Below are positions 2,461 through 11,855 of a stretch of 11,855 bases of DNA, piece by piece. This stretch comes from a virus (taxonomy: Duplodnaviria > Heunggongvirae > Uroviricota > Caudoviricetes), in IMG/VR virus record IMGVR_UViG_2675903621_000013, positions 1 to 11,855 of that record; one strand, written 5' to 3'. The translations under genes and the position numbers were made by a program. Numbering within the stretch: position 1 is the stretch's first letter; each line of letters opens with the position of its first letter. The notes under the pieces were generated by a model. The model did no database searches. It had not been told where the DNA came from and was given only the letters and a program-made list of their open reading frames with translations.

Positions 2461-2694
2461 ATGTCAACGAAGAACAGAACCCGCAGAACAACAACCCGCA
2501 ACATCCGATTTCCAAACCAGATGATTGAACAAATTAACATCGCTCTTGTTCAAAAAGGGTCCGGGAATTTCTCAGCCTGGGTCATTGAAGCCTGCCGCCG
2601 GAGACTGTGCTCAGTAAAAAGAGTTTCGCCTGAAGCAAACAAAGAAAAGAGTGACATTACTGAATTGCTCAGAAAACAGGTCAGACCAGATTGA
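2461..2694 (+). CDS. Small ribbon-helix-helix-like protein (resembles the ylcI-type small proteins next to cos in E. coli lambdoid prophages)
   Basis: 77-aa ORF. The segment RNIRFPNQMIEQINIALVQKGSGNFSAWVIEACRRRL has the beta-strand then helix pattern typical of CopG/Arc/MetJ RHH proteins, with a basic N-terminal tail. Similarity to ylcI is from memory and unverified. Confidence 0.55.
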   Translation: MSTKNRTRRTTTRNIRFPNQMIEQINIALVQKGSGNFSAWVIEACRRRLCSVKRVSPEANKEKSDITELLRKQVRPD

Positions 2695-2751
2695 AGCAAT
2701 TTAGATAATCGTGCAGACTACGCCCCCTCATATCACATGGAAGGTACTACA

Positions 2752-3162
2752 ATGGCTCAGGTTGCCATTTTTAAACAAATATTCGATAAAGTGCGAAATA
2801 ATTTAAACTATCACTGGTTTTATTCTGAACTAAAACGTCACAATGTCTCACATTACATTTACTATTTAGCCACAGAGAATATTCATCTTGTTCTTGAAAA
2901 CGATAATACGGTTTTAATAAAAGGACAGGGTAAGGTTGTAAATGTAAGATTTTCAAAAAATAAATGCCTTATAGAAGCCACCTTAAAAGGATTCAAATCA
3001 GGAGAGTTATCATTTTACGAATACAGGAAAAATCTTGCTACAGCAGGGGTTTTCAGATGGATTACAAATATCCACGAAAACAAAAGGTATTACTATACCT
3101 TTGATAATTCATTACTCTTTACTGAGAACATTCAGAACACTACACAAATATTTCCGCACTAA
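2752..3162 (+). CDS. DUF1398-like hypothetical protein (ybcV-like moron), AT-rich
   Basis: ORF track gives 2737..3162; the ATG at 2752 (MAQVAIFKQ...) has a GGAAGG Shine-Dalgarno 8 nt upstream whereas 2737 has none, giving 136 aa. The gene is visibly AT-rich relative to flanking phage genes and is transcribed opposite to the late operon. Family assignment is from memory. Confidence 0.65.
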
Positions 3163-4802: not shown

Positions 4803-5360
4803 CTAAATACGCACTTTAAGATAAGTCAGCCCCGGATGAAGCCAGTAAGCCGGCACTTTTTTAAAGGGCGGATTATCAAAATCACGAAGAAGAGCCTCCC
4901 GCACAACTGCATCCTTGTCCGCACCACTGGCCAGCGCTTCAATCTCAGCAGCTATCTGCAGATATCCCATGCAACGGCCAACGCGCTTCATCAGCCCCTG
5001 CTTTTTATTGTTCTTCAGGTAATCAATGGCAAATTCAATGAGCTCCTCACTGTGCTGGTGCGATGGAGGTGTTACTTTCCCATTTTCTGAGATGGTTATT
5101 TTCCCGGCATCACCGGATACAACAAAGGATGGCCGGTTACACTCCCATTCCAGCTCACTGAAATTATCATTATGAATACTGAAACACTCTGCGAGATTTT
5201 TGCTCATCACTTTCCGACAATAATCGTCAAACGCAGCAAACTGCTCATCGCGGCGTTTTTTTTCATCTTCAGAAGGCATCAGCGTCGACAGTTTTTTATT
5301 CAGTTCAGCAATTTCATTTTCCAGGCGACTGAAGCGCTGATTCATTTCTTCATGGTTCAT
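4803..5360 (-). CDS. Hypothetical 185-aa protein inserted between holin and endolysin (same position as ydfR in the Qin prophage)
   Basis: GGGGAGAG Shine-Dalgarno upstream of the ATG at 5358-5360, tightly packed against the holin stop. The N-terminus is coiled-coil-like (EEMNQRFSRLENEIAELNKKLSTLMPSEDEKKRRDEQ). No family recognised by eye. Confidence 0.75.
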   Translation of the reverse strand: MNHEEMNQRFSRLENEIAELNKKLSTLMPSEDEKKRRDEQFAAFDDYCRKVMSKNLAECFSIHNDNFSELEWECNRPSFVVSGDAGKITISENGKVTPPSHQHSEELIEFAIDYLKNNKKQGLMKRVGRCMGYLQIAAEIEALASGADKDAVVREALLRDFDNPPFKKVPAYWLHPGLTYLKVRI

Positions 5361-5729: not shown

Positions 5730-7583
5730 TTATGATGATGCCGGTGCATTTATCTCCAGCACCAGACTTTCTATCTCAACGCCATACGCTGCATTTTTGG
5801 TAATATCCGTCAGCGTCAGCGCATTCAGCCCCAGTGTCAGACTGTCTTTTATGACCTGGAATGCCGGGCCAGCCACTCCATTCAGTTTCGGAGTAACCGT
5901 GGCACTGCCGGCGGTGAACACCAGCTCCAGCGTCTGCCAGTCGTTACTGTAATTCCCGAACTCGCCCAACTTTGTGTTTCCTGCTTTCTTGTGATGCATC
6001 AGATTCAGTTTGCCGTCTGTGGTCTGGGTGAAGAACGACATCAGGAACGGGTTACCGGTACCCGTCATCGCCACGACGTCAGGTAACGCTACATCGGTAT
6101 ACAGATAAATTCCCAGACCGAACTGATTGTTGGTCAGTGCGCCTGACAGTCGAAACTTACAGCTCAGTCTGCCACCCCGTGTCAGCAGGGAGACTGCGTC
6201 ATCCACCGGGCGCGTCAGGGACCAGGTTTTATTGCTCTGCTTGGCGATCTTAAATACACCACCCGACAACTGAATTCCGCCGTCCTTAATGGTCCAGCCC
6301 TGCGCAGCAGCCTCTCCGGCTGTCGGCAGCAGGGAGATTGTGCGAACGGACGTATCTGCAGACGGACCCGATGGCGTGTCGCCGCCGGGCGAGGGTTTGA
6401 TTTCCGGCGCCTTACCACTGATGAAGGCTGAGGTGCGCCCGGCTGCGTTCAGAATAGCGGTTGCCATACGATCGGGAATAATGCCACGACGCGCCCATGA
6501 GCTGAAATGCGTCGGGCGATTTGATGATACCCAGTTTTTGTTCGTTCGGGATGCCGAACCGTAATAACCAGACCCGACAATATCAGGATCTTCTGACGGG
6601 TTGTTTGTCGGTGTATTAACTCCGCTACCATCGGTCATAAAGGGAACAAAATAAATCTGCTGGGATTCTTTACCTTTATATGCACCATATACCACTTCAT
6701 ATTGCGTACCGTGTTCTTGTTTCCACGCGTATGTCGTGTCGCCACAAATCCAGGGGACTGATGCCGGACTTCCACCGTGACACTGCGCCGCCAGCCCGGC
6801 AAGGTCAGCACGGAACTGCTGTACCATTGCAAGAAATGCTGCTGGCTGCTGGGCGTAACTGGCATTCGTCATATCGAATTCCCCCTGCATCCAGCATATC
6901 GCCAGCAAAACGTTTTTCGGGTTTTTCTGCAATGCTGCCTTCGTGCGGAAAAGCAGATCCTGATATAACGGCTTACCCACTCCCCAGCGAGCCGAATCCT
7001 GACTGGCCCCCGTGGACTCGCTGAATGTCCCCTCCGTGCCCTGGGTGAATGCCGAACCACCACGACAGCATGGTACCAGCAGGATCCCCGCATTATTAGG
7101 GATATACGGAAGCAGTTTTTTGGCAATATGTAAGCCCTGTCCGACACAGCCGTACTGCCCTTTGCTCAGGTCAGCCCGGGGATGGTTAATCGTACTCATA
7201 TCCTGAACATCATGCAGACAATGGTCAGCAGGAATGATGTCGTTAAATACGCATACTTCACCACCGGGAGTCACTGTGTTACGACGGGCCAGTTGCTTAA
7301 TGCGCGGATGGGGCGCATCGTATGAATCCGGAAGCGGAAGCCCTTCACCGTAAGCCATGGCATTGGACTGCCCGGCCAGTACGATGACGTAGTACCACTC
7401 CGGCTCAGTTGCACCACTGACGACCACATCACCTTCTGCTGCAATCGCCTGCATCAGGGTATAAGGGGTTATGGCCACCGGACTACCAAACGGCTGCCAG
7501 CCCTCTTTCAGTTTATGTGTCAGCTTTTCCGCAAGATCTGACGGCGACGCCGCCCTGACAACATCATAGTGTTTAAATGCCAT
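5730..7583 (-). CDS. nanS-p: NanS-p-type prophage sialate O-acetylesterase (DUF1737 N-terminal domain, SASA/SGNH esterase domain, C-terminal domain)
   Basis: Long ORF with the GQSN esterase motif (VLAGQSNAMAYGEG), sitting between the tRNA/toxin slot and the holin as in Stx phages. The ATG at 7581-7583 (MAFKHYDV...) has a GGTGGA Shine-Dalgarno; the ORF-track start at 7598 (MVERTM...) has none. Confidence 0.88.
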   Translation of the reverse strand: MAFKHYDVVRAASPSDLAEKLTHKLKEGWQPFGSPVAITPYTLMQAIAAEGDVVVSGATEPEWYYVIVLAGQSNAMAYGEGLPLPDSYDAPHPRIKQLARRNTVTPGGEVCVFNDIIPADHCLHDVQDMSTINHPRADLSKGQYGCVGQGLHIAKKLLPYIPNNAGILLVPCCRGGSAFTQGTEGTFSESTGASQDSARWGVGKPLYQDLLFRTKAALQKNPKNVLLAICWMQGEFDMTNASYAQQPAAFLAMVQQFRADLAGLAAQCHGGSPASVPWICGDTTYAWKQEHGTQYEVVYGAYKGKESQQIYFVPFMTDGSGVNTPTNNPSEDPDIVGSGYYGSASRTNKNWVSSNRPTHFSSWARRGIIPDRMATAILNAAGRTSAFISGKAPEIKPSPGGDTPSGPSADTSVRTISLLPTAGEAAAQGWTIKDGGIQLSGGVFKIAKQSNKTWSLTRPVDDAVSLLTRGGRLSCKFRLSGALTNNQFGLGIYLYTDVALPDVVAMTGTGNPFLMSFFTQTTDGKLNLMHHKKAGNTKLGEFGNYSNDWQTLELVFTAGSATVTPKLNGVAGPAFQVIKDSLTLGLNALTLTDITKNAAYGVEIESLVLEINAPASS

Positions 7584-7843
7584 GGTTCTTTCCACCATCT
7601 GAAAAATGATTCTTTAAAATACCTGACATGTAATACAGAAAAAACACAAAACCATACCTTAAATAAAAACCTCATCATCAAGCAGATATGCATGGATAAA
7701 CTACAAGACGAGATATAAACCACCCTGCATTTAAATAAACAATAAACAACATCAGAAAAATAATTCTGCTCTATGGTTTACAATCAAAAATATCATTTAT
7801 ACTTTTCAGAACATCACCAGCAAGGCATAAACAAGGAAACTAA

Positions 7844-8179
7844 ATGAAGTGGATTGTGATTGATACAGTTATCCAGCCATCATGCGGAATATCTTTTTCA
7901 GTCATATGGAGTAAAATAAAATTAATAATCTGGTATCAATCGGATGCTTTCTTACCTCCTGAAAGTATATTTACACTGACTCACACAGGTATCATGCTCA
8001 ATAACAAAGTGCTACCTGTAACCATTTACAACGTAGTACCATTCAATAAAACATTCTGGAATTTAATCAAAAACAGCCAGGAATGCCCTACAAATACAGA
8101 TAACGTATTGAATGAATGCTTTAATAACCGTTGCACTCTGCAAATATGTCCTTATGGGCTAAAACAACAAAGTCCATAA
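7844..8179 (+). CDS. Hypothetical AT-rich 111-aa ORF, divergent from the late operon
   Basis: AAGGA Shine-Dalgarno 6-7 nt before the ATG; possible sigma70 promoter upstream (TTTACA ... TATACT around 7766-7795). Cysteine-rich C-terminus ([26 protein letters not shown]). No minus-strand ORF of 60 aa or more anywhere in 7724-8626. No family recognised. Confidence 0.35.
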
Positions 8180-8196
8180 GGAGTTTACTCACATCT

Positions 8197-8235
8197 GACA
8201 AAATCAATATAAACAGCCCCTCCGGAGAGGGGCTG
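8197..8235 (-). terminator. Intrinsic-terminator-like hairpin (minus strand)
   Basis: Perfect 9-bp stem CAGCCCCTC / GAGGGGCTG (8214-8222 and 8227-8235) with loop CGGA. On the minus strand it is followed by TTTATATTGATTTTGT. Confidence 0.45.
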
Positions 8236-8626
8236 GAGAGTGGCGCTATGTGCCATTGCATGGTGCCGGGTGCCTCCCGGTGAATTCAGTACCAGCACCT
8301 GAATCCGCGATTATCCCATATACCTACTCGCTGATTGCCCCTCCGCACAGGGGGATTCACCATGCCAGTTTCTTTTAACAAACTCCCCGCAAACCAGACA
8401 ACAGTCAACCGCCTGAATTGTGAAGTATTTAAAAATTTCTCCCGCTAACTGATACCCGGCTAACAGTCTGGCGTTTTCTTTTTCAGCAACGGGAAAGCAA
8501 CAACCACCACACCCGCCACCAGCACACCGTCAGCCAGCACTGACATTATCCGGCTGCTGCAATGCCATTCACAAAAACAGTAAGCTATCACTTTTTACCG
8601 TAACAGGTGATAATCCAGATATGTAT

Positions 8627-8980
8627 CTACCCCAGATGAGTAATCCGAAGTTCATCCATACCACAGGTCCTGGCTATTCTGTTGTACTCCTGAACAAGAG
8701 CAAATAATTCTGAATTAGCAACCATGAACTCATCGCAAACCCTCTGTATAGCATCACTATTCAGAATAATAACGTCTCTTCCCGAAAGACGATCAGGAGT
8801 ACAGAACAAAACTGTAAAACGGCTGAAGGCCTTTGCTCGTGCTGCATTGACTATATCAATACGCTGCCTAAGGATGAAACACCCCGACGCCCCATCAATA
8901 TTCACTCTACCCACACCATATGAATGATAAATATTTAATACTGAAAAAACCATTAGACCGTATAACAAACACTCAATCAA
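8627..8980 (-). CDS. Hypothetical 117-aa ORF in the toxin slot (TTG start, no RBS); possibly a pseudogene or non-coding
   Basis: The ORF-track start is a TTG at 8978-8980. The first ATG (8951-8953) also lacks a Shine-Dalgarno. Same strand as the late operon, immediately downstream of tRNA-Arg. No family recognised. Confidence 0.3.
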   Translation of the reverse strand: MIECLLYGLMVFSVLNIYHSYGVGRVNIDGASGCFILRQRIDIVNAARAKAFSRFTVLFCTPDRLSGRDVIILNSDAIQRVCDEFMVANSELFALVQEYNRIARTCGMDELRITHLG

Positions 8981-9090
8981 TACTTAACAGAACTTTTATT
9001 TTTGACAAACATATAATATTTTCAACAATATCCTGAGCCAGGTATATTCCAGTATAAGGCTCTGCCGGAAGGAATCTGGAAGAATGAATA

Positions 9091-9167
9091 TGGCGCGTTG
9101 TACTGGATTCGAACCAGTGACCGATTGCTTAGAAGGCAATTGCTCTGTCCGGCTGAGCTAACAACGC
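9091..9167 (-). tRNA. tRNA-Arg (anticodon UCU)
   Basis: Minus-strand 77-nt sequence folds as a canonical cloverleaf: acceptor GCGTTGT/ACAACGC, D stem GCTC/GAGC, anticodon stem ATTGC/GCAAT with loop CTTCTAA, T stem ACTGG/CCAGT with loop TTCGAAT, and an encoded CCA. Confidence 0.9.
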
Positions 9168-9180
9168 TGAATACCGATAA

Positions 9181-9261
9181 TGGACCGCCATCGGGGACCA
9201 GCCCCCCGCACCAACAACCCTGTTATCGTGTCGTCTGCTCTTCCTGATAAGCTAATGGCGG
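9181..9261 (-). other. Degenerate tRNA-like element (possible pseudo-tRNA) between the two tRNA genes
   Basis: 81 nt with an encoded CCA end, a 7-bp acceptor stem (CCGCCAT/ATGGCGG), a D-stem-like GCTT/GAGC and a T-stem-like CGGGG/CCCCG, but a non-canonical T loop (GGCTGGT) and no foldable anticodon arm. Spacers to the flanking tRNAs are 7 and 13 nt. Confidence 0.3.
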
Positions 9262-9268
9262 TTTGTGA

Positions 9269-9344
9269 TGGTGGCCCTTGCTGGATTTGAACCAGCGACC
9301 TGGCGATTATGAGTCGCTCGCTCTCACCACTGAGCTAAAGGGCC
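9269..9344 (-). tRNA. tRNA with CAU anticodon, most likely tRNA-Ile2 (ileX/ileZ-like; lysidine-modified to read AUA)
   Basis: 76-nt cloverleaf: acceptor GGCCCTT/AAGGGCC, D stem GCTC/GAGC, anticodon loop CTCATAA, T stem GCTGG/CCAGC with loop TTCAAAT, encoded CCA. Close to E. coli ileX as I remember it. A Met identity cannot be excluded from sequence alone. Confidence 0.85.
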
Positions 9345-10443: not shown

Positions 10444-10580
10444 GGATCATTAAGCCTGTCTCTGATAGGCTCATTCTGCTTTTGCGCAAAGCAGTGGGCC
10501 TGAGGTTTGCTTGTGAACCCAACGCATGAGCAGATGGCTGGTGGGTGCCCCTAACACCCACCAGCCGCCCATTTACCACA

Positions 10581-10607
10581 AATAAAAAAGCCTTCACTGC
10601 GGAAGGC
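10581..10607 (-). terminator. Intrinsic terminator (minus strand) upstream of the methyltransferase
   Basis: On the minus strand, GCCTTC CGCAGT GAAGGC is followed by TTTTTTATTT (plus coordinates: A-run 10582-10589, stem 10590-10595 and 10602-10607). Confidence 0.55.
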
Positions 10608-10791
10608 GTCTGTAACAACCGAACTGATAGTCTGCCAGACCCGCCATAACCAGCTGGGTCAGTATTAACTGGCAGCGTTCGCGTGAAAGGTAAGTATTCT
10701 GCGCTATCTCCCCGACTGTCGCCGGTTCGGTAACGCTTAATTCATTAAACACCACTCTGGCGGTTTCTGTCATATCCTGCTGTTTTAGCAT
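10594..10791 (-). CDS. Small winged-helix protein, PapI/FaeA-like (65 aa from the ATG at 10789-10791)
   Basis: MLKQQDMTETARVVFNELSVTEPATVGEIAQNTYLSRERCQLILTQLVMAGLADYQFGCYRRLPQ shows the PapI/FaeA pattern (L..x..T..EIA..x..R..L..L...G). The ORF-track N-terminal extension to 10914 runs into a terminator hairpin and is rejected. The RBS is weak and the stop overlaps the downstream terminator stem, so coding status is uncertain. Confidence 0.45.
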   Translation of the reverse strand: MLKQQDMTETARVVFNELSVTEPATVGEIAQNTYLSRERCQLILTQLVMAGLADYQFGCYRRLPQ

Positions 10792-10913
10792 GTCTTTTTC
10801 CCTTTTCCGGTTAACGTGACACACCAATAACTCTTGTCGAAAAAGCCAGCAAGCTGAAAGAACGGTATTAATAACCACCAGCGAATTTATTGCGCTACTG
10901 TATATCGCGGACA

Positions 10914-10935
10914 CAAAAAAACCACCTTCCGGTGG
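10914..10935 (-). terminator. Intrinsic terminator (minus strand) about 80 nt downstream of the Q-like gene (tR'-like position)
   Basis: On the minus strand, CCACC GGAA GGTGG is followed by TTTTTTTTG (plus coordinates: stem 10922-10926 and 10931-10935, A-run 10914-10921). Confidence 0.55.
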
Positions 10936-11015: not shown

Positions 11016-11567
11016 TCAGTTTGCAACATTTTTCTCTGTAACAAAAGCCATGCGCATGGGGGCATATAACATAAATTCAGATACCCCCAACCATTGATCA
11101 ATTCGGCGTCTGCACGTAACCAACGACCAATCAGGATGATCTGCATTTAACCTTTCGGCCATTTTCAGTTTGCTCATTCCCCGTCCTTCGTACCTTTGCC
11201 GGAGAACATTGATTAGCCCGGGATATTCCCCAAGCACCTCACTGATAACGCGATCAATAATCAACGCCTCTGTGTCTGTACAATGTGACAACCAGCTCTT
11301 CTGCTTTCCTCTTGTCATATCCCGAAAAAATGCCTCAAGTTCCGGTTTTTCCAGCCCGGATTTCTTCATTCTGCGTAAAACCTCATTAACTGCTGTTTTC
11401 GTCAGCTTTTTCGAAACCAGTAACCGGTTAAACATATTTCCGGATTTACCCCCACCGATATACGACCACCGCCCCCACATCCGTAATTTCCCCTGGATCC
11501 AGACTGCTTCCAGCGTGTTCAGGCGTAAATGTTCGCCGCTTTTGCCTGTAATTTCCGGATATATCAT
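11016..11567 (-). CDS. Putative late-gene antiterminator Q (Q21/QuuD-like family)
   Basis: Positional: immediately downstream of rusA and upstream of terminators, tRNAs and the lysis cassette, where Q sits in lambdoid phages. Contains an MWGRW motif resembling the WGxW motif I recall in Q21/QuuD-family antiterminators. The ORF-track start is a GTG at 11577-11579; the ATG at 11565-11567 (MIYPEITG...) is the more likely start. Confidence 0.6.
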   Translation of the reverse strand: MIYPEITGKSGEHLRLNTLEAVWIQGKLRMWGRWSYIGGGKSGNMFNRLLVSKKLTKTAVNEVLRRMKKSGLEKPELEAFFRDMTRGKQKSWLSHCTDTEALIIDRVISEVLGEYPGLINVLRQRYEGRGMSKLKMAERLNADHPDWSLVTCRRRIDQWLGVSEFMLYAPMRMAFVTEKNVAN

Positions 11568-11575
11568 ATTTACGC

Positions 11576-11855
11576 TCACTCACTCTCAATTTTGTAAATC
11601 TTCACACCCAGCCGTCCACCAGATACTGGCTGACCACGTACAATATTGATTTCATCAAACTGCTCGTCATCAATGAGCACTCCCGCATGCGTCAGCGCAT
11701 CCAGCGGTGCTTTCAGAATGTTGTCCAGGTCGCGACGACGCTTATCCGGTGGCTCTGCAATCACCTTTATCGCCAGCCTTCCGGACAGGCTTAATTTCAG
11801 CCGCTGCTGGCGAACAATAAGCGCCACAGCCCGGCGATAACGCTCACCGGCTTTT
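11576..11855 (-). CDS. rusA: Holliday-junction resolvase RusA (C-terminal part; start lies beyond the window end)
   Basis: ...PPDKRRRDLDNILKAPLDALTHAGVLIDDEQFDEINIVRGQPVSGGRLGVKIYKIESE matches the RusA C-terminal region (DRRRRDLDN...) as I remember it. The reading frame is open to the window edge. Confidence 0.85.
   Translation of the reverse strand, partial: KAGERYRRAVALIVRQQRLKLSLSGRLAIKVIAEPPDKRRRDLDNILKAPLDALTHAGVLIDDEQFDEINIVRGQPVSGGRLGVKIYKIESE

What the first reader, a model, noticed from the sequence alone, without database searches (positions are those of the whole stretch)
7600..9090. The position that holds stxAB in Stx phages contains uncharacterised AT-rich cargo instead
The gene order Q-like, methyltransferase, tRNA-Ile2/Arg, [cargo], nanS-p, lysis cassette is the late-operon layout of Stx-converting lambdoid phages, where the cargo slot between the tRNAs and nanS-p holds stxA/stxB. 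Here I find no Stx-like A (~319 aa) or B (~89 aa) reading frame. The 1.5-kb slot is visibly AT-rich and contains a 117-aa minus-strand ORF with a TTG start and no RBS (8627-8980), a divergent 111-aa plus-strand ORF with its own RBS and promoter-like hexamers (7844-8179), an intrinsic terminator (8197-8235), and about 400 bp with no long ORF. This slot is a known hotspot for moron acquisition (toxins, porins, cold-shock genes), so its contents are the best candidates for novel function in the window.
Basis: partly seen in the sequence, partly recalled or inferred. Interest (0 to 1): 0.65.

Follow-up and report, generated by a model that had tools for sequence, protein, structure and literature searches.

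The report
Known iraL–STnc100 prophage moron region
The stretch that sits where Shiga-toxin genes lie in related phages is a common, largely described prophage segment: the RpoS-stabilising gene iraL, a known small RNA (STnc100), a damaged small membrane-protein gene, and one real but uncharacterised 92-residue gene.

Summary
The 111-aa plus-strand ORF is 100% identical to IraL of E. coli CFT073, a published RssB anti-adaptor that stabilises RpoS. Its published mRNA 5' end maps to 7811. The "terminator" and much of the "ORF-free 400 bp" are one STnc100 small-RNA gene (8205-8394, minus strand, 132 bits against a gathering score of 47). The same element follows stx2B in phage 933W, where it is known as EcOnc27/sRNA103. 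The 117-aa TTG ORF is really a 92-codon gene (GTG 8905 to 8627, dN/dS about 0.25) of an orphan enterobacterial family. It is followed by a DUF3927/TciB gene that has lost its first membrane helix, and the TerB partner gene is missing. Synteny shows two variable slots around STnc100. Only 8395-9090 corresponds to the stxAB position. iraL sits in the second slot, which holds the anti-sRNA AsxR in 933W. An O157:H7 Stx2c prophage carries both stx2c and an iraM-like gene. The whole slot is at about 99.9% identity in the best-matching genomes, and 863 of 5,426 complete E. coli genomes carry at least 80% of it. Low interest; the only unknown left is ORF92.

The parts
9091..9344 (-). Upstream boundary: tRNA with CAT anticodon (9344-9269; RefSeq calls it tRNA-Ile, ileZ type) and tRNA-Arg TCT (9167-9091)
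   Evidence: ARAGORN; Rfam tRNA 72.5 and 70.1 bits. Homology to the 933W tRNA block runs from 9495 to 9083 at 86% and stops there.
8906..9090 (-). AT-rich spacer (31.4% GC) between tRNA-Arg and ORF92.
   Evidence: GC content. The promoter scan is a consensus match only and is not enriched over shuffles.
8627..8905 (-). ORF92: a real protein-coding gene of an orphan enterobacterial family (phrog_2873). Predicted fold is helix, beta-hairpin, helix. This gene, together with the tciB remnant, occupies the position of stxAB.
   Evidence: phrog_2873 at 227 bits, matching residues 10-117. Exactly 92 codons with a GTG start in three lineages that are 70-75% identical at nucleotide level; dN/dS 0.23-0.28, against about 1.2 with many stops in the other frames. 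The L009 homologue has an AGGAG Shine-Dalgarno sequence. No Pfam, NCBIfam, PDB or PADLOC hit. AlphaFold2 pLDDT 88. Best fold match is prefoldin beta at E = 0.04, not significant.
8592..8619 (-). 28-nt relic of the junction between the 3' end of tciA (TerB family) and the start of tciB. The rest of tciA is absent.
   Evidence: 24/28 identical to phage JLK-2012 at the tciA stop / tciB start. Intact triads ORF92-TerB-DUF3927 exist in L009 and in Citrobacter loci L013-L015.
8460..8591 (-). 43-aa DUF3927 (TciB-like) ORF. Its C-terminal 32 residues (second hydrophobic helix) are shared with full-length TciB. The first helix is replaced by 11 unrelated residues after a GTG start.
   Evidence: Pfam PF13064 at 95.6 bits. 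phrog_1470 'TciB-like' matches residues 12-40 only. Alignment and hydropathy against JLK-2012 TciB (54 aa) and the L009 protein (50 aa). RefSeq WP_000562553.1.
8205..8394 (-). STnc100-family small RNA gene (EcOnc27/sRNA103 in Stx2 phages; related to PasD). The conserved core is about 8257-8432. The 3' stretch between the closing stem and the terminator varies between copies.
   Evidence: Rfam RF02076 at 132.4 bits against a gathering score of 47, covering model positions 1-206. The same family is found directly after stx2B in 933W (208 bits) and in the Stx2c prophage, CFT073, mEp460, 640R1 and JLK-2012. 9 of 42 predicted pairs show compensatory changes. MFE -69.2 kcal/mol, z = -2.3. Terminator scan.
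7844..8179 (+). iraL coding sequence: a 111-aa RssB anti-adaptor of the IraM family, convergent with the late operon. Its stop codon lies 34 nt from the STnc100 terminator hairpin.
   Evidence: 111/111 identical to CFT073 IraL (WP_000871291.1) and 59.5% identical to K-12 IraM. NCBIfam NF007393 at 162 bits against a cutoff of 121. Same sequence as UniProt IRAM_ECO27. Function published in PMC4045071.
7777..7843 (+). iraL sigma-70 promoter and 5' UTR: -35 TTTACA (7777-7782), -10 TATACT (7798-7803), TSS A at 7811, 33-nt 5' UTR with Shine-Dalgarno AAGGAA (7833-7838)
   Evidence: The published 5'-RACE sequence of iraL mRNA matches 7811-7842 with 1 mismatch, and no match occurs in 200 shuffles. The sequence was read directly. 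Both hexamers are identical to CFT073.
7599..7776 (+). AT-rich region upstream of the iraL promoter, up to the divergent nanS-p start. It forms part of the iraL cassette, which is 32.5% GC overall.
   Evidence: GC content. 98.6% identical to CFT073 across 7599-8240. The published complementing fragment spans -100 to +33 (PMC4045071).
5730..7598 (-). Downstream boundary: intact nanS-p-like SASA esterase. RefSeq starts it at ATG 7583, giving 617 aa.
   Evidence: Pfam DUF1737 + SASA + DUF6645. 53% identical to the 933W esterase over 640 aa. RefSeq annotation in strain DEC5E.

Best explanation
The slot is a mosaic of four elements of the lambdoid 'moron' region downstream of PR'. They are arranged in two variable slots on either side of a conserved small-RNA gene.

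**Slot A (8395-9090)** runs from tRNA-Arg to STnc100. This is the true stxAB position. It holds a decayed three-gene module, ORF92-tciA(TerB)-tciB(DUF3927):
- ORF92 is intact and under purifying selection.
- tciA is deleted except for a 28-nt relic.
- tciB has lost its first membrane helix.

**Anchor (8205-8394, minus strand)** is an STnc100-family small RNA with its own Rho-independent terminator. It is the homologue of the Hfq-binding sRNA EcOnc27/sRNA103 that follows stx2B in Stx2 phages. By inference, it is made either from its own promoter or by termination or processing of transcripts coming from upstream, and it acts in trans through Hfq. Its conserved core is the sequence shared by otherwise different prophages, so it probably also serves as the homology anchor for exchanging cargo.

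**Slot B (7599-8204)** runs from STnc100 to nanS-p. It holds the AT-rich iraL cassette on the opposite strand, at the place where 933W carries the anti-sRNA AsxR. iraL is transcribed in the lysogen from its own sigma-70 promoter (TSS 7811). [quoted passage not shown] This has been shown experimentally for the identical protein in CFT073.

**Shown here:** identities, family memberships, synteny, the two-slot architecture, coding constraint on ORF92, and the truncation of tciB.
**Taken from the literature:** IraL function and TSS; Hfq binding and expression of STnc100/EcOnc27 copies in O157.
**Inferred:** expression of this particular STnc100 copy and of ORF92; the recombination-anchor role; transcriptional interference between late transcription and iraL.
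For: - IraL: 111/111 identity to CFT073 IraL. NCBIfam IraM at 162 bits against a 121-bit cutoff. Published TSS sequence found at 7811-7842. Promoter hexamers unchanged and CDS differences synonymous.
- The CFT073 potB prophage carries the same module in the same order.
- STnc100: 132 bits against a gathering score of 47, full length. Found after stx2B in 933W and between stx2cB and the iraM-like gene in a Stx2c prophage. Compensatory pairs.
- Two slots: 933W shares the tRNA block (9495-9083), the STnc100 core (8423-8257) and the nanS-p start (7584-7476), but nothing in between. JLK-2012 has tciA-tciB in slot A. The Stx2c prophage has stx2c in slot A and an iraM-like gene in slot B. 933W has AsxR in slot B, and no AsxR relic is present here.
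- ORF92: dN/dS 0.23-0.28. The triad with TerB and DUF3927 is conserved in E. coli and Citrobacter prophages.
- tciB truncation and tciA relic.
- Prevalence: whole slot in 863 genomes, iraL cassette at >=95% identity in about 1,400, and the ORF92 region in 1,183 of 5,426 complete genomes.
- Literature: PMC4045071 (IraL); PMC4104026 and PMC7873438 (moron CDS followed by convergent Hfq-binding sRNAs; EcOnc27); PMC5331693 (11 STnc100 copies transcribed in EDL933, one confirmed by Northern blot).
Against: - No expression data exist for this strain or this copy.
- The STnc100 terminator has an interrupted U-tract (TTTATATT), which may weaken termination and Hfq binding.
- No convincing sigma-70 promoter was found for STnc100 or ORF92. 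Promoter-like sites in the region are not enriched over shuffles.
- RefSeq does not annotate ORF92 in this lineage, and its Shine-Dalgarno sequence here (GGTGTGGG) is weaker than in L009.
- The direction of the tciA/tciB change (deletion rather than ancestral state) is inferred from a 28-nt relic only.
- The function of STnc100 is not established in any organism. The proposed fimZ/espA and stxB links are from overexpression or in silico work.
Confidence: 0.85

Rival explanations
1. One reading: the whole 1.5 kb is a novel, uncharacterised cargo cassette that replaced stxAB and is likely to encode new functions.
For: stx is absent. The region is a known moron hotspot (PMC4104026). ORF92 has no Pfam, NCBIfam, PDB or PADLOC match and RefSeq does not annotate it.
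Against: About 800 bp of the 1.5 kb is iraL (identical to a characterised protein) plus STnc100. STnc100 is also present in Stx phages, so it did not replace stx. An iraM-family gene coexists with stx2c. The segment is common: 863 genomes carry at least 80% of it, and the best matches are 99.9% identical.
Confidence: 0.07
2. Inert backbone: the slot is decaying prophage DNA with no expressed or selected product in this lysogen.
For: tciB is truncated and tciA is deleted. In many carriers the neighbouring nanS-p is reduced to a stub, which indicates defective prophages. No strong promoters were found for the minus-strand elements.
Against: IraL from the identical gene and promoter is expressed and functional in CFT073 and Shigella sonnei (PMC4045071). 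The iraL CDS carries only synonymous differences from CFT073. ORF92 is under purifying selection. STnc100 copies are transcribed in EDL933 (PMC5331693) and show compensatory changes.
Confidence: 0.05
3. ORF92 is a chance open frame, and the true product of 8250-8378 (+) is the partial 'hypothetical protein' that RefSeq marks there.
For: RefSeq leaves 8627-8980 unannotated in more than 1,180 genomes and places a pseudo-CDS at the position equivalent to 8250-8375 on the plus strand.
Against: In the ORF92 frame dN/dS is 0.23-0.28, against about 1.2 with 4-13 stops in the other frames. All three lineages have exactly 92 codons. Homologues at 32-62% amino-acid identity occur in other contexts, and RefSeq annotates some of them. 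The model is confident, pLDDT 88. The 8250-8378 ORF matches no protein family and lies entirely inside the STnc100 match on the other strand.
Confidence: 0.03

Closest known systems
iraL locus of the potB-island prophage of uropathogenic E. coli CFT073 (Hryckowian et al. 2014, PMC4045071)
   Same: The module and its order are the same: tRNAs, unannotated ORF92 region, DUF3927, STnc100, iraL on the opposite strand, then the esterase gene and lysis genes. Identity is 97.5% over window 9383-7364. The IraL protein is identical, as are the promoter hexamers and the TSS sequence.
   Different: CFT073 has three tRNAs, an IS200 upstream and a different Q. Its nanS-p is reduced to a DUF1737 stub, whereas the window has an intact 617/622-aa esterase, a DUF1133-type Q and a DNA methyltransferase.
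stx2AB / EcOnc27 (STnc100) / AsxR / nanS-p region of Stx2a phages 933W and Sp5 (Tree et al. 2014, PMC4104026)
   Same: The architecture is the same: PR', tRNAs, moron CDS, STnc100-family sRNA on the late strand, an element on the convergent strand, then the esterase and lysis genes. The tRNA block, STnc100 core and esterase start are homologous.
   Different: Slot A holds stx2AB there and ORF92 plus the tciB remnant here. Slot B holds the 53-nt anti-sRNA AsxR there and the 0.6-kb iraL cassette here. No AsxR/AgvB relic is present in the window.
Stx2c prophage of E. coli O157:H7 (strain Z1816, L007)
   Same: It has STnc100 followed by a convergent iraM-family gene immediately upstream of the esterase, the same slot-B arrangement as the window.
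   Different: Slot A holds stx2A/stx2cB. The iraM-like protein has 107 aa, is 75% identical to IraL, and has a diverged promoter region.
tciA-tciB (TerB family + DUF3927) module of stx-negative phage JLK-2012, and the ORF92-TerB-DUF3927 triads of E. coli 442/2 and Citrobacter prophages
   Same: It occupies the same position downstream of Q and the tRNAs (or the methyltransferase) and upstream of the lysis genes. From the second half of tciB through STnc100 the window is 93% identical to JLK-2012. ORF92 homologues (38-62% amino-acid identity) lead the triad.
   Different: The window lacks tciA apart from a 28-nt relic, and its tciB lacks the first hydrophobic helix. JLK-2012 lacks ORF92. L009 and the Citrobacter loci put the triad directly before the holin genes, and no STnc100 homology was seen in L009 (blastn; the Citrobacter loci were not scanned for it).
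IraM of E. coli K-12 (b1160, next to cryptic prophage e14)
   Same: Same protein family: NCBIfam NF007393, 59.5% identity, RssB anti-adaptor.
   Different: Different genomic context, with no STnc100 nearby, and a different promoter. According to PMC4045071, IraM contacts both RssB domains while IraL contacts only the N-terminal domain and acts in log phase.

Membership tests
IraM/IraL family of RssB anti-adaptors | Sequence match to the curated family model above its cutoff | tested here: met
   NCBIfam NF007393 at 162 bits against a 121-bit cutoff, residues 1-110.
IraM/IraL family of RssB anti-adaptors | Identity to the experimentally characterised IraL of CFT073, as distinct from K-12 IraM | tested here: met
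   111/111 identical to CFT073 WP_000871291.1 and 59.5% identical to K-12 IraM. The paper reports 58.9% between IraL and IraM (PMC4045071).
IraM/IraL family of RssB anti-adaptors | Native iraL sigma-70 promoter and mapped transcription start | tested here: met
   The 5'-RACE sequence matches 7811-7842 with 1 mismatch. The -35 and -10 hexamers are identical to CFT073.
IraM/IraL family of RssB anti-adaptors | Binds RssB and stabilises RpoS | not testable with these tools
   Published for the identical protein in CFT073, Shigella sonnei and K-12 (PMC4045071). Not measured for this strain.
Rfam RF02076 STnc100 (EcOnc27/sRNA103; PasD-related) | Covariance-model score at or above the gathering threshold over the full model | tested here: met
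   132.4 bits against 47, model positions 1-206, window 8394-8205 on the minus strand.
Rfam RF02076 STnc100 (EcOnc27/sRNA103; PasD-related) | Conserved secondary structure supported by compensatory changes | tested here: met
   42 predicted pairs, 9 of them with changes on both sides, among 7 copies from about 4 lineages. The sample is small, so support is modest.
Rfam RF02076 STnc100 (EcOnc27/sRNA103; PasD-related) | Rho-independent terminator at the 3' end | tested here: met
   9-bp stem with 7 G-C pairs at 8235-8214, followed by TTTATATT. The U-tract is interrupted, unlike the TTTTTA in 933W and the Stx2c copy.
Rfam RF02076 STnc100 (EcOnc27/sRNA103; PasD-related) | Position on the late-operon strand between the moron CDS and the esterase gene | tested here: met
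   Same position in 933W, the Stx2c prophage, CFT073 and JLK-2012.
Rfam RF02076 STnc100 (EcOnc27/sRNA103; PasD-related) | Expressed as a discrete Hfq-binding RNA | not testable with these tools
   Shown for other copies in O157 strains Sakai and EDL933 (PMC4104026, PMC7873438, PMC5331693), not for this copy.
DUF3927 / TciB-like small membrane proteins | Pfam PF13064 match above the gathering score | tested here: met
   95.6 bits against 25.
DUF3927 / TciB-like small membrane proteins | Full-length architecture of about 50-54 aa with two hydrophobic helices | tested here: not met
   The protein has 43 aa. The first helix of JLK-2012 TciB and of the L009 protein is replaced by VIAYCFCEWHC. The PHROG TciB profile matches residues 12-40 only.
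DUF3927 / TciB-like small membrane proteins | TerB-family partner gene immediately upstream, overlapping the start | tested here: not met
   No TerB gene is present; only a 28-nt relic of the tciA end / tciB start remains at 8619-8592. Partners are present in L009, L011 and L013-L015.
Shiga toxin (stxA/stxB) | A and B subunit reading frames | tested here: not met
   tblastn best E = 0.5 for the A subunit and 2.0 for the B subunit; blastn finds a 16-nt chance match.
AsxR/AgvB anti-sRNAs (convergent partner of EcOnc27) | Match to Rfam RF02703/RF02702, or to the 933W AsxR sequence, on the plus strand next to the STnc100 terminator | tested here: not met
   No Rfam hit at E <= 1. The best local alignment score of 17 equals the mean for shuffled sequences, 16.4.
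phrog_2873 (phage protein family of unknown function) for ORF92 | Profile match over the full profile | tested here: met
   227 bits, profile positions 1-108 matching residues 10-117 of the 117-aa frame.
Prefoldin beta-like fold for ORF92 | Significant structural similarity to prefoldin beta subunits | tested here: inconclusive
   The topology is shared (helix, beta-hairpin, helix), with TM-score 0.71. However, E = 0.04, rmsd is 8.5 A and sequence identity is 15%, and no match reaches E <= 0.001.

The most novel reading that the evidence does not exclude
ORF92 is a real, selected and largely unannotated gene. It leads a conserved ORF92-TerB-DUF3927 module that competes with stxAB for the same insertion slot. 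It might encode a new host-modulating or superinfection/envelope-stress function that survives here after its TerB and TciB partners decayed. More broadly, the conserved STnc100 core might act as a portable recombination anchor that lets lambdoid phages swap cargo on either side: toxins, Ter-like modules, RpoS anti-adaptors and anti-sRNAs. Several observations fit this anchor idea: an iraM-family gene lies next to stx2c in O157 Stx2c phages, and some prophages carry tandem arrays of STnc100.
Probability: 0.2. Interest if true: 0.45.

Novelty: already known. Interest (0 to 1): 0.2.

Why it matters
For annotation, this result removes a false lead. The 'empty stx slot' of this O55:H7-type prophage carries iraL, a published regulator of RpoS stability, and a copy of the STnc100/EcOnc27 small RNA.

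It also gives a cleaner map of the late-region moron site. There are two independent cargo slots on either side of a conserved sRNA, which explains how stx, Ter-like genes, anti-sRNAs and RpoS anti-adaptors are shuffled among lambdoid prophages.

Two small practical points follow:
- A 92-codon gene under purifying selection is left unannotated by RefSeq in more than a thousand complete E. coli genomes.
- RefSeq places a pseudo 'hypothetical protein' on the strand opposite the STnc100 gene.

None of this changes current understanding of these systems.

Tried and rejected
- Stx remnants: tblastn and blastn with 933W and Stx2c subunits found nothing.
- AsxR/AgvB anti-sRNA relic in the iraL 3' UTR: no Rfam hit, and the alignment was no better than shuffles.
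- Function of ORF92: no hit in Pfam, NCBIfam, PADLOC or PDB sequences. A search of 1.8 billion representative proteins and a profile search found only small hypothetical proteins of Enterobacteriaceae. The Foldseek PDB search gave only non-significant coiled-coil and prefoldin-like matches. The afdb50 library was unavailable.
- Protein-level search for ORF92 in 50,697 phage records found one record, mEp460_ev081.
- A literature search for TciA/TciB returned only unrelated Trypanosoma papers.
- I could not decide whether the window's sRNA is a PasD variant, because PasD sequences are not in the held text or supplement of the preprint.
- I looked for an STnc100 relic next to K-12 iraM, to link chromosomal iraM to this slot. 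None was found.
- The promoter scan gave no enrichment over shuffles, so no promoter is claimed for ORF92 or STnc100.
- The short ORFs at 7569-7718 (+), 7520-7723 (-) and 8250-8378 (+) match no family.
Full report
**Observation**

The late operon of this prophage fragment runs on the minus strand. The gene order is:
- a Q-like protein (DUF1133 plus a weak Phage_antitermQ match, 11579-11016);
- a small ORF;
- an N6/N4 DNA methyltransferase (10443-9394);
- a tRNA with CAT anticodon (9344-9269) and tRNA-Arg TCT (9167-9091);
- the 1.5-kb slot;
- a nanS-p-like esterase (DUF1737 + SASA + DUF6645, 7598/7583-5730);
- holin, a 185-aa ORF, lysozyme and Rz.

There is no stx. tblastn with Stx2A, Stx2B and Stx2cB finds nothing better than E = 0.5. 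The slot is 39.4% GC against 48.5% for the window, but the low GC is concentrated in 7599-8204 (32.5%) and 8906-9090 (31.4%). The stretch 8205-8394 is 55.3% GC. So the raw observation stands.

**The 111-aa ORF is iraL**

- It passes the NCBIfam IraM model (162 bits against a cutoff of 121).
- It has the same sequence as UniProt IRAM_ECO27.
- It is 111/111 identical to the CFT073 protein WP_000871291.1 and 59.5% identical to K-12 IraM.

Hryckowian et al. (PMC4045071) named the CFT073 protein IraL. [quoted passage not shown] Their 5'-RACE sequence of iraL mRNA matches window 7811-7842 with one mismatch and never matches in shuffles. This places the TSS at 7811, 33 nt before the ATG, as in their -100 to +33 complementing fragment.

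The cassette 7599-8240 is 98.6% identical to CFT073. The -35 (TTTACA, 7777-7782) and -10 (TATACT, 7798-7803) hexamers are unchanged, and the differences inside the CDS are synonymous.

**The terminator and the ORF-free stretch are an STnc100 small-RNA gene**

Window 8394-8205 (minus strand) matches Rfam RF02076 over the full model at 132.4 bits, against a gathering score of 47. Its 3' end is the hairpin 8235-8214.

The same family is found:
- directly after stx2B in phage 933W (208 bits);
- between stx2cB and an iraM-like gene in an O157:H7 Stx2c prophage (158 bits);
- in CFT073, mEp460, vB_EcoS-640R1 (two copies) and JLK-2012.

An alignment of seven copies gives 42 predicted pairs, 9 of them with compensatory changes. 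The window copy folds to -69.2 kcal/mol with z = -2.3.

In the literature this element is the Hfq-binding sRNA EcOnc27/sRNA103 downstream of stx2B (PMC4104026, PMC7873438, PMC12711010, PMC12370729). EDL933 has 11 transcribed STnc100 copies, one confirmed by Northern blot (PMC5331693). A 2026 preprint relates STnc100 to the PasD sRNAs of EPEC (10.64898/2026.05.13.724894). Its function is still unclear. RefSeq does not annotate the RNA; it places a partial 'hypothetical protein' pseudo-CDS on the opposite strand, equivalent to 8250-8375. That ORF matches no protein family.

**The 117-aa ORF is a real 92-codon gene**

The phrog_2873 profile (108 positions) matches residues 10-117, and the 108-aa ATG form occurs on more than 1,000 contigs.

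Diverged copies, 70-75% identical at nucleotide level, occur in three lineages. Each has exactly 92 codons starting at GTG, and the L009 copy has an AGGAG Shine-Dalgarno sequence. In this frame dN/dS is 0.23-0.28. In the other two frames it is about 1.2, with 4-13 stops. The conserved gene is therefore 8905-8627, although the ATG at 8953 cannot be excluded as the start in this lineage.

The family is small: 91-95 residues, Enterobacteriaceae only, all annotated as hypothetical proteins. It has no Pfam, NCBIfam, PADLOC or PDB-sequence relative. AlphaFold2 gives a confident helix, beta-hairpin, helix model (pLDDT 88). The best structural matches are prefoldin beta subunits, but none is significant (E = 0.04). 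RefSeq annotates nothing here in at least 1,183 complete genomes, and only one of 50,697 phage records encodes it.

**The missed DUF3927 ORF is a damaged tciB**

The 43-aa ORF at 8591-8460 passes Pfam DUF3927 (95.6 bits). Compared with TciB of phage JLK-2012 (54 aa) and the L009 protein (50 aa), it keeps only the second hydrophobic helix. The first helix is replaced by 11 unrelated residues.

A 28-nt relic of the tciA stop / tciB start junction survives at 8619-8592, but the TerB-family gene tciA is gone. Intact triads ORF92-TerB-DUF3927 sit just upstream of the holin genes in E. coli 442/2 and in Citrobacter prophages, where the ORF92 homologue is only 38% identical. More distant ORF92 homologues are solitary genes on plasmids. 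The window therefore carries a decayed version of a conserved three-gene module.

**Synteny: two slots, not one**

The window shares three blocks with 933W and nothing in between:
- the tRNA block (9495-9083, 86%);
- the STnc100 core (8423-8257, 71%);
- the esterase start (7584-7476, 85%).

Slot A lies between the tRNAs and STnc100. It holds stx2AB in 933W, stx2A/stx2cB in the Stx2c prophage, tciA-tciB in JLK-2012, and ORF92 plus the tciB remnant here.

Slot B lies between STnc100 and the esterase, on the opposite strand. It holds the anti-sRNA AsxR in 933W, an iraM-like gene (75% identical to IraL) in the Stx2c prophage, and iraL here. No AsxR relic remains in the window.

This is the architecture Tree et al. 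described: moron CDS, then convergent sRNAs, then a conserved ORF (PMC4104026). The difference here is that a protein-coding moron sits in the convergent position. Because an iraM-family gene and stx2c coexist, iraL is not what 'replaced' stx. Only about 0.7 kb (8395-9090) is positionally equivalent to stxAB.

**Prevalence**

- 863 of 5,426 complete E. coli genomes carry at least 80% of the slot, and the best-matching genomes are 99.9% identical across all 1,491 bp.
- The iraL cassette is present at 95% identity or more in about 1,400 genomes.
- The ORF92 region is present in 1,183 genomes.
- The whole 11.9-kb window matches O55:H7 strain DEC5E at 99.7%. Only three genomes carry 80% or more of it, as expected for a mosaic prophage.

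**Mechanism**

- Shown or published: in the lysogen, iraL is transcribed from its own sigma-70 promoter, and IraL sequesters RssB and raises RpoS.
- Inferred: the STnc100 copy is produced on the late strand, ends at its terminator and acts through Hfq. Q-dependent late transcription would read through slot A, STnc100 and antisense across iraL on induction. The conserved STnc100 core serves as the homology anchor for cargo exchange. In line with that last inference, one prophage has four STnc100 copies separating successive morons.
- ORF92 is a selected cytoplasmic coiled-coil protein of unknown function. My low-confidence guess is that it works with the TerB/TciB envelope-associated pair. The tciB remnant is probably non-functional.

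**Verdict**

The finding is a correct description with an over-optimistic interpretation. Nearly all of the slot consists of known, previously described elements. The residual unknown is one small orphan gene. Novelty: already known. Interest: 0.2.

Noticed in passing
L007 5115-5438 (E. coli O157:H7 Z1816, NZ_CP062719.1): An iraM-family gene (107 aa, 75% identical to IraL) lies about 300 bp from stx2cB in a Stx2c prophage, convergent with it and separated from it by STnc100. An RpoS anti-adaptor homologue is therefore physically linked to a Shiga toxin operon.
   Followed up: partly
L010 2668-2880, 4639-4834, 4898-5107, 5169-5370 (E. coli JNE170426): There are four full-length STnc100 copies in one late region. 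Three are in tandem after the ORF92 homologue and one follows a TolA-like moron. Phage vB_EcoS-640R1 (L002) has two copies. This suggests cassette stacking by recombination at the sRNA.
   Followed up: partly
window 8250-8378 (+): RefSeq genomes carry a partial 'hypothetical protein' pseudo-CDS here (L001, L006, L012). It lies wholly inside the STnc100 match on the other strand and matches no protein family, so it is probably an annotation artefact.
   Followed up: yes
window 8627-8905 (-): ORF92 is under purifying selection, yet RefSeq leaves it unannotated in at least 1,183 complete E. coli genomes. RefSeq does annotate diverged homologues in other prophages as hypothetical proteins.
   Followed up: yes
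window 5730-7598 (-): The nanS-p-like esterase is intact here (617/622 aa). In CFT073 and in strain 09-02E it is reduced to a DUF1737 stub: window 7364-5872 is missing from those genomes.
   Followed up: partly
window 2737-3162 (+) and 2461-2694 (+): A second AT-rich moron (31-33% GC) lies downstream of Rz: a DUF1398 protein next to a YnfO/YlcI-like ORF. K-12 iraM also sits near a DUF1398 gene (ycgX), but that locus has no STnc100 relic.
   Followed up: partly
window 4803-5360 (-): A 185-aa ORF lies between the holin and lysozyme genes. It matches only PHROG families of unknown function (phrog_1085 and others) and has no Pfam, NCBIfam or PADLOC hit.
   Followed up: no
L016-L019: Distant ORF92 homologues (about 34% identity) are solitary genes on plasmid-like contigs. 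They lie next to K88/Pap-type fimbrial operons, or next to genes with type IV pilus/type II secretion-related domains (T2SSE, T2SSF, prepilin peptidase).
   Followed up: no
window 10594-10914 (-) and 11016-11579 (-): The Q-like protein is a DUF1133 type with only a weak Phage_antitermQ match. Between it and the methyltransferase, RefSeq annotates a 65-aa hypothetical protein (WP_000917767.1) rather than the 106-aa ORF (phrog_331). A weak Rfam P26 match at 10503-10567 (+) is below threshold.
   Followed up: no
L012 12269-13482 (O55:H7 DEC5E): The closest genome differs from the window by an IS3-family insertion that splits the terminase large-subunit gene. The window therefore comes from a close relative without that insertion, or from a different copy.
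   Followed up: no
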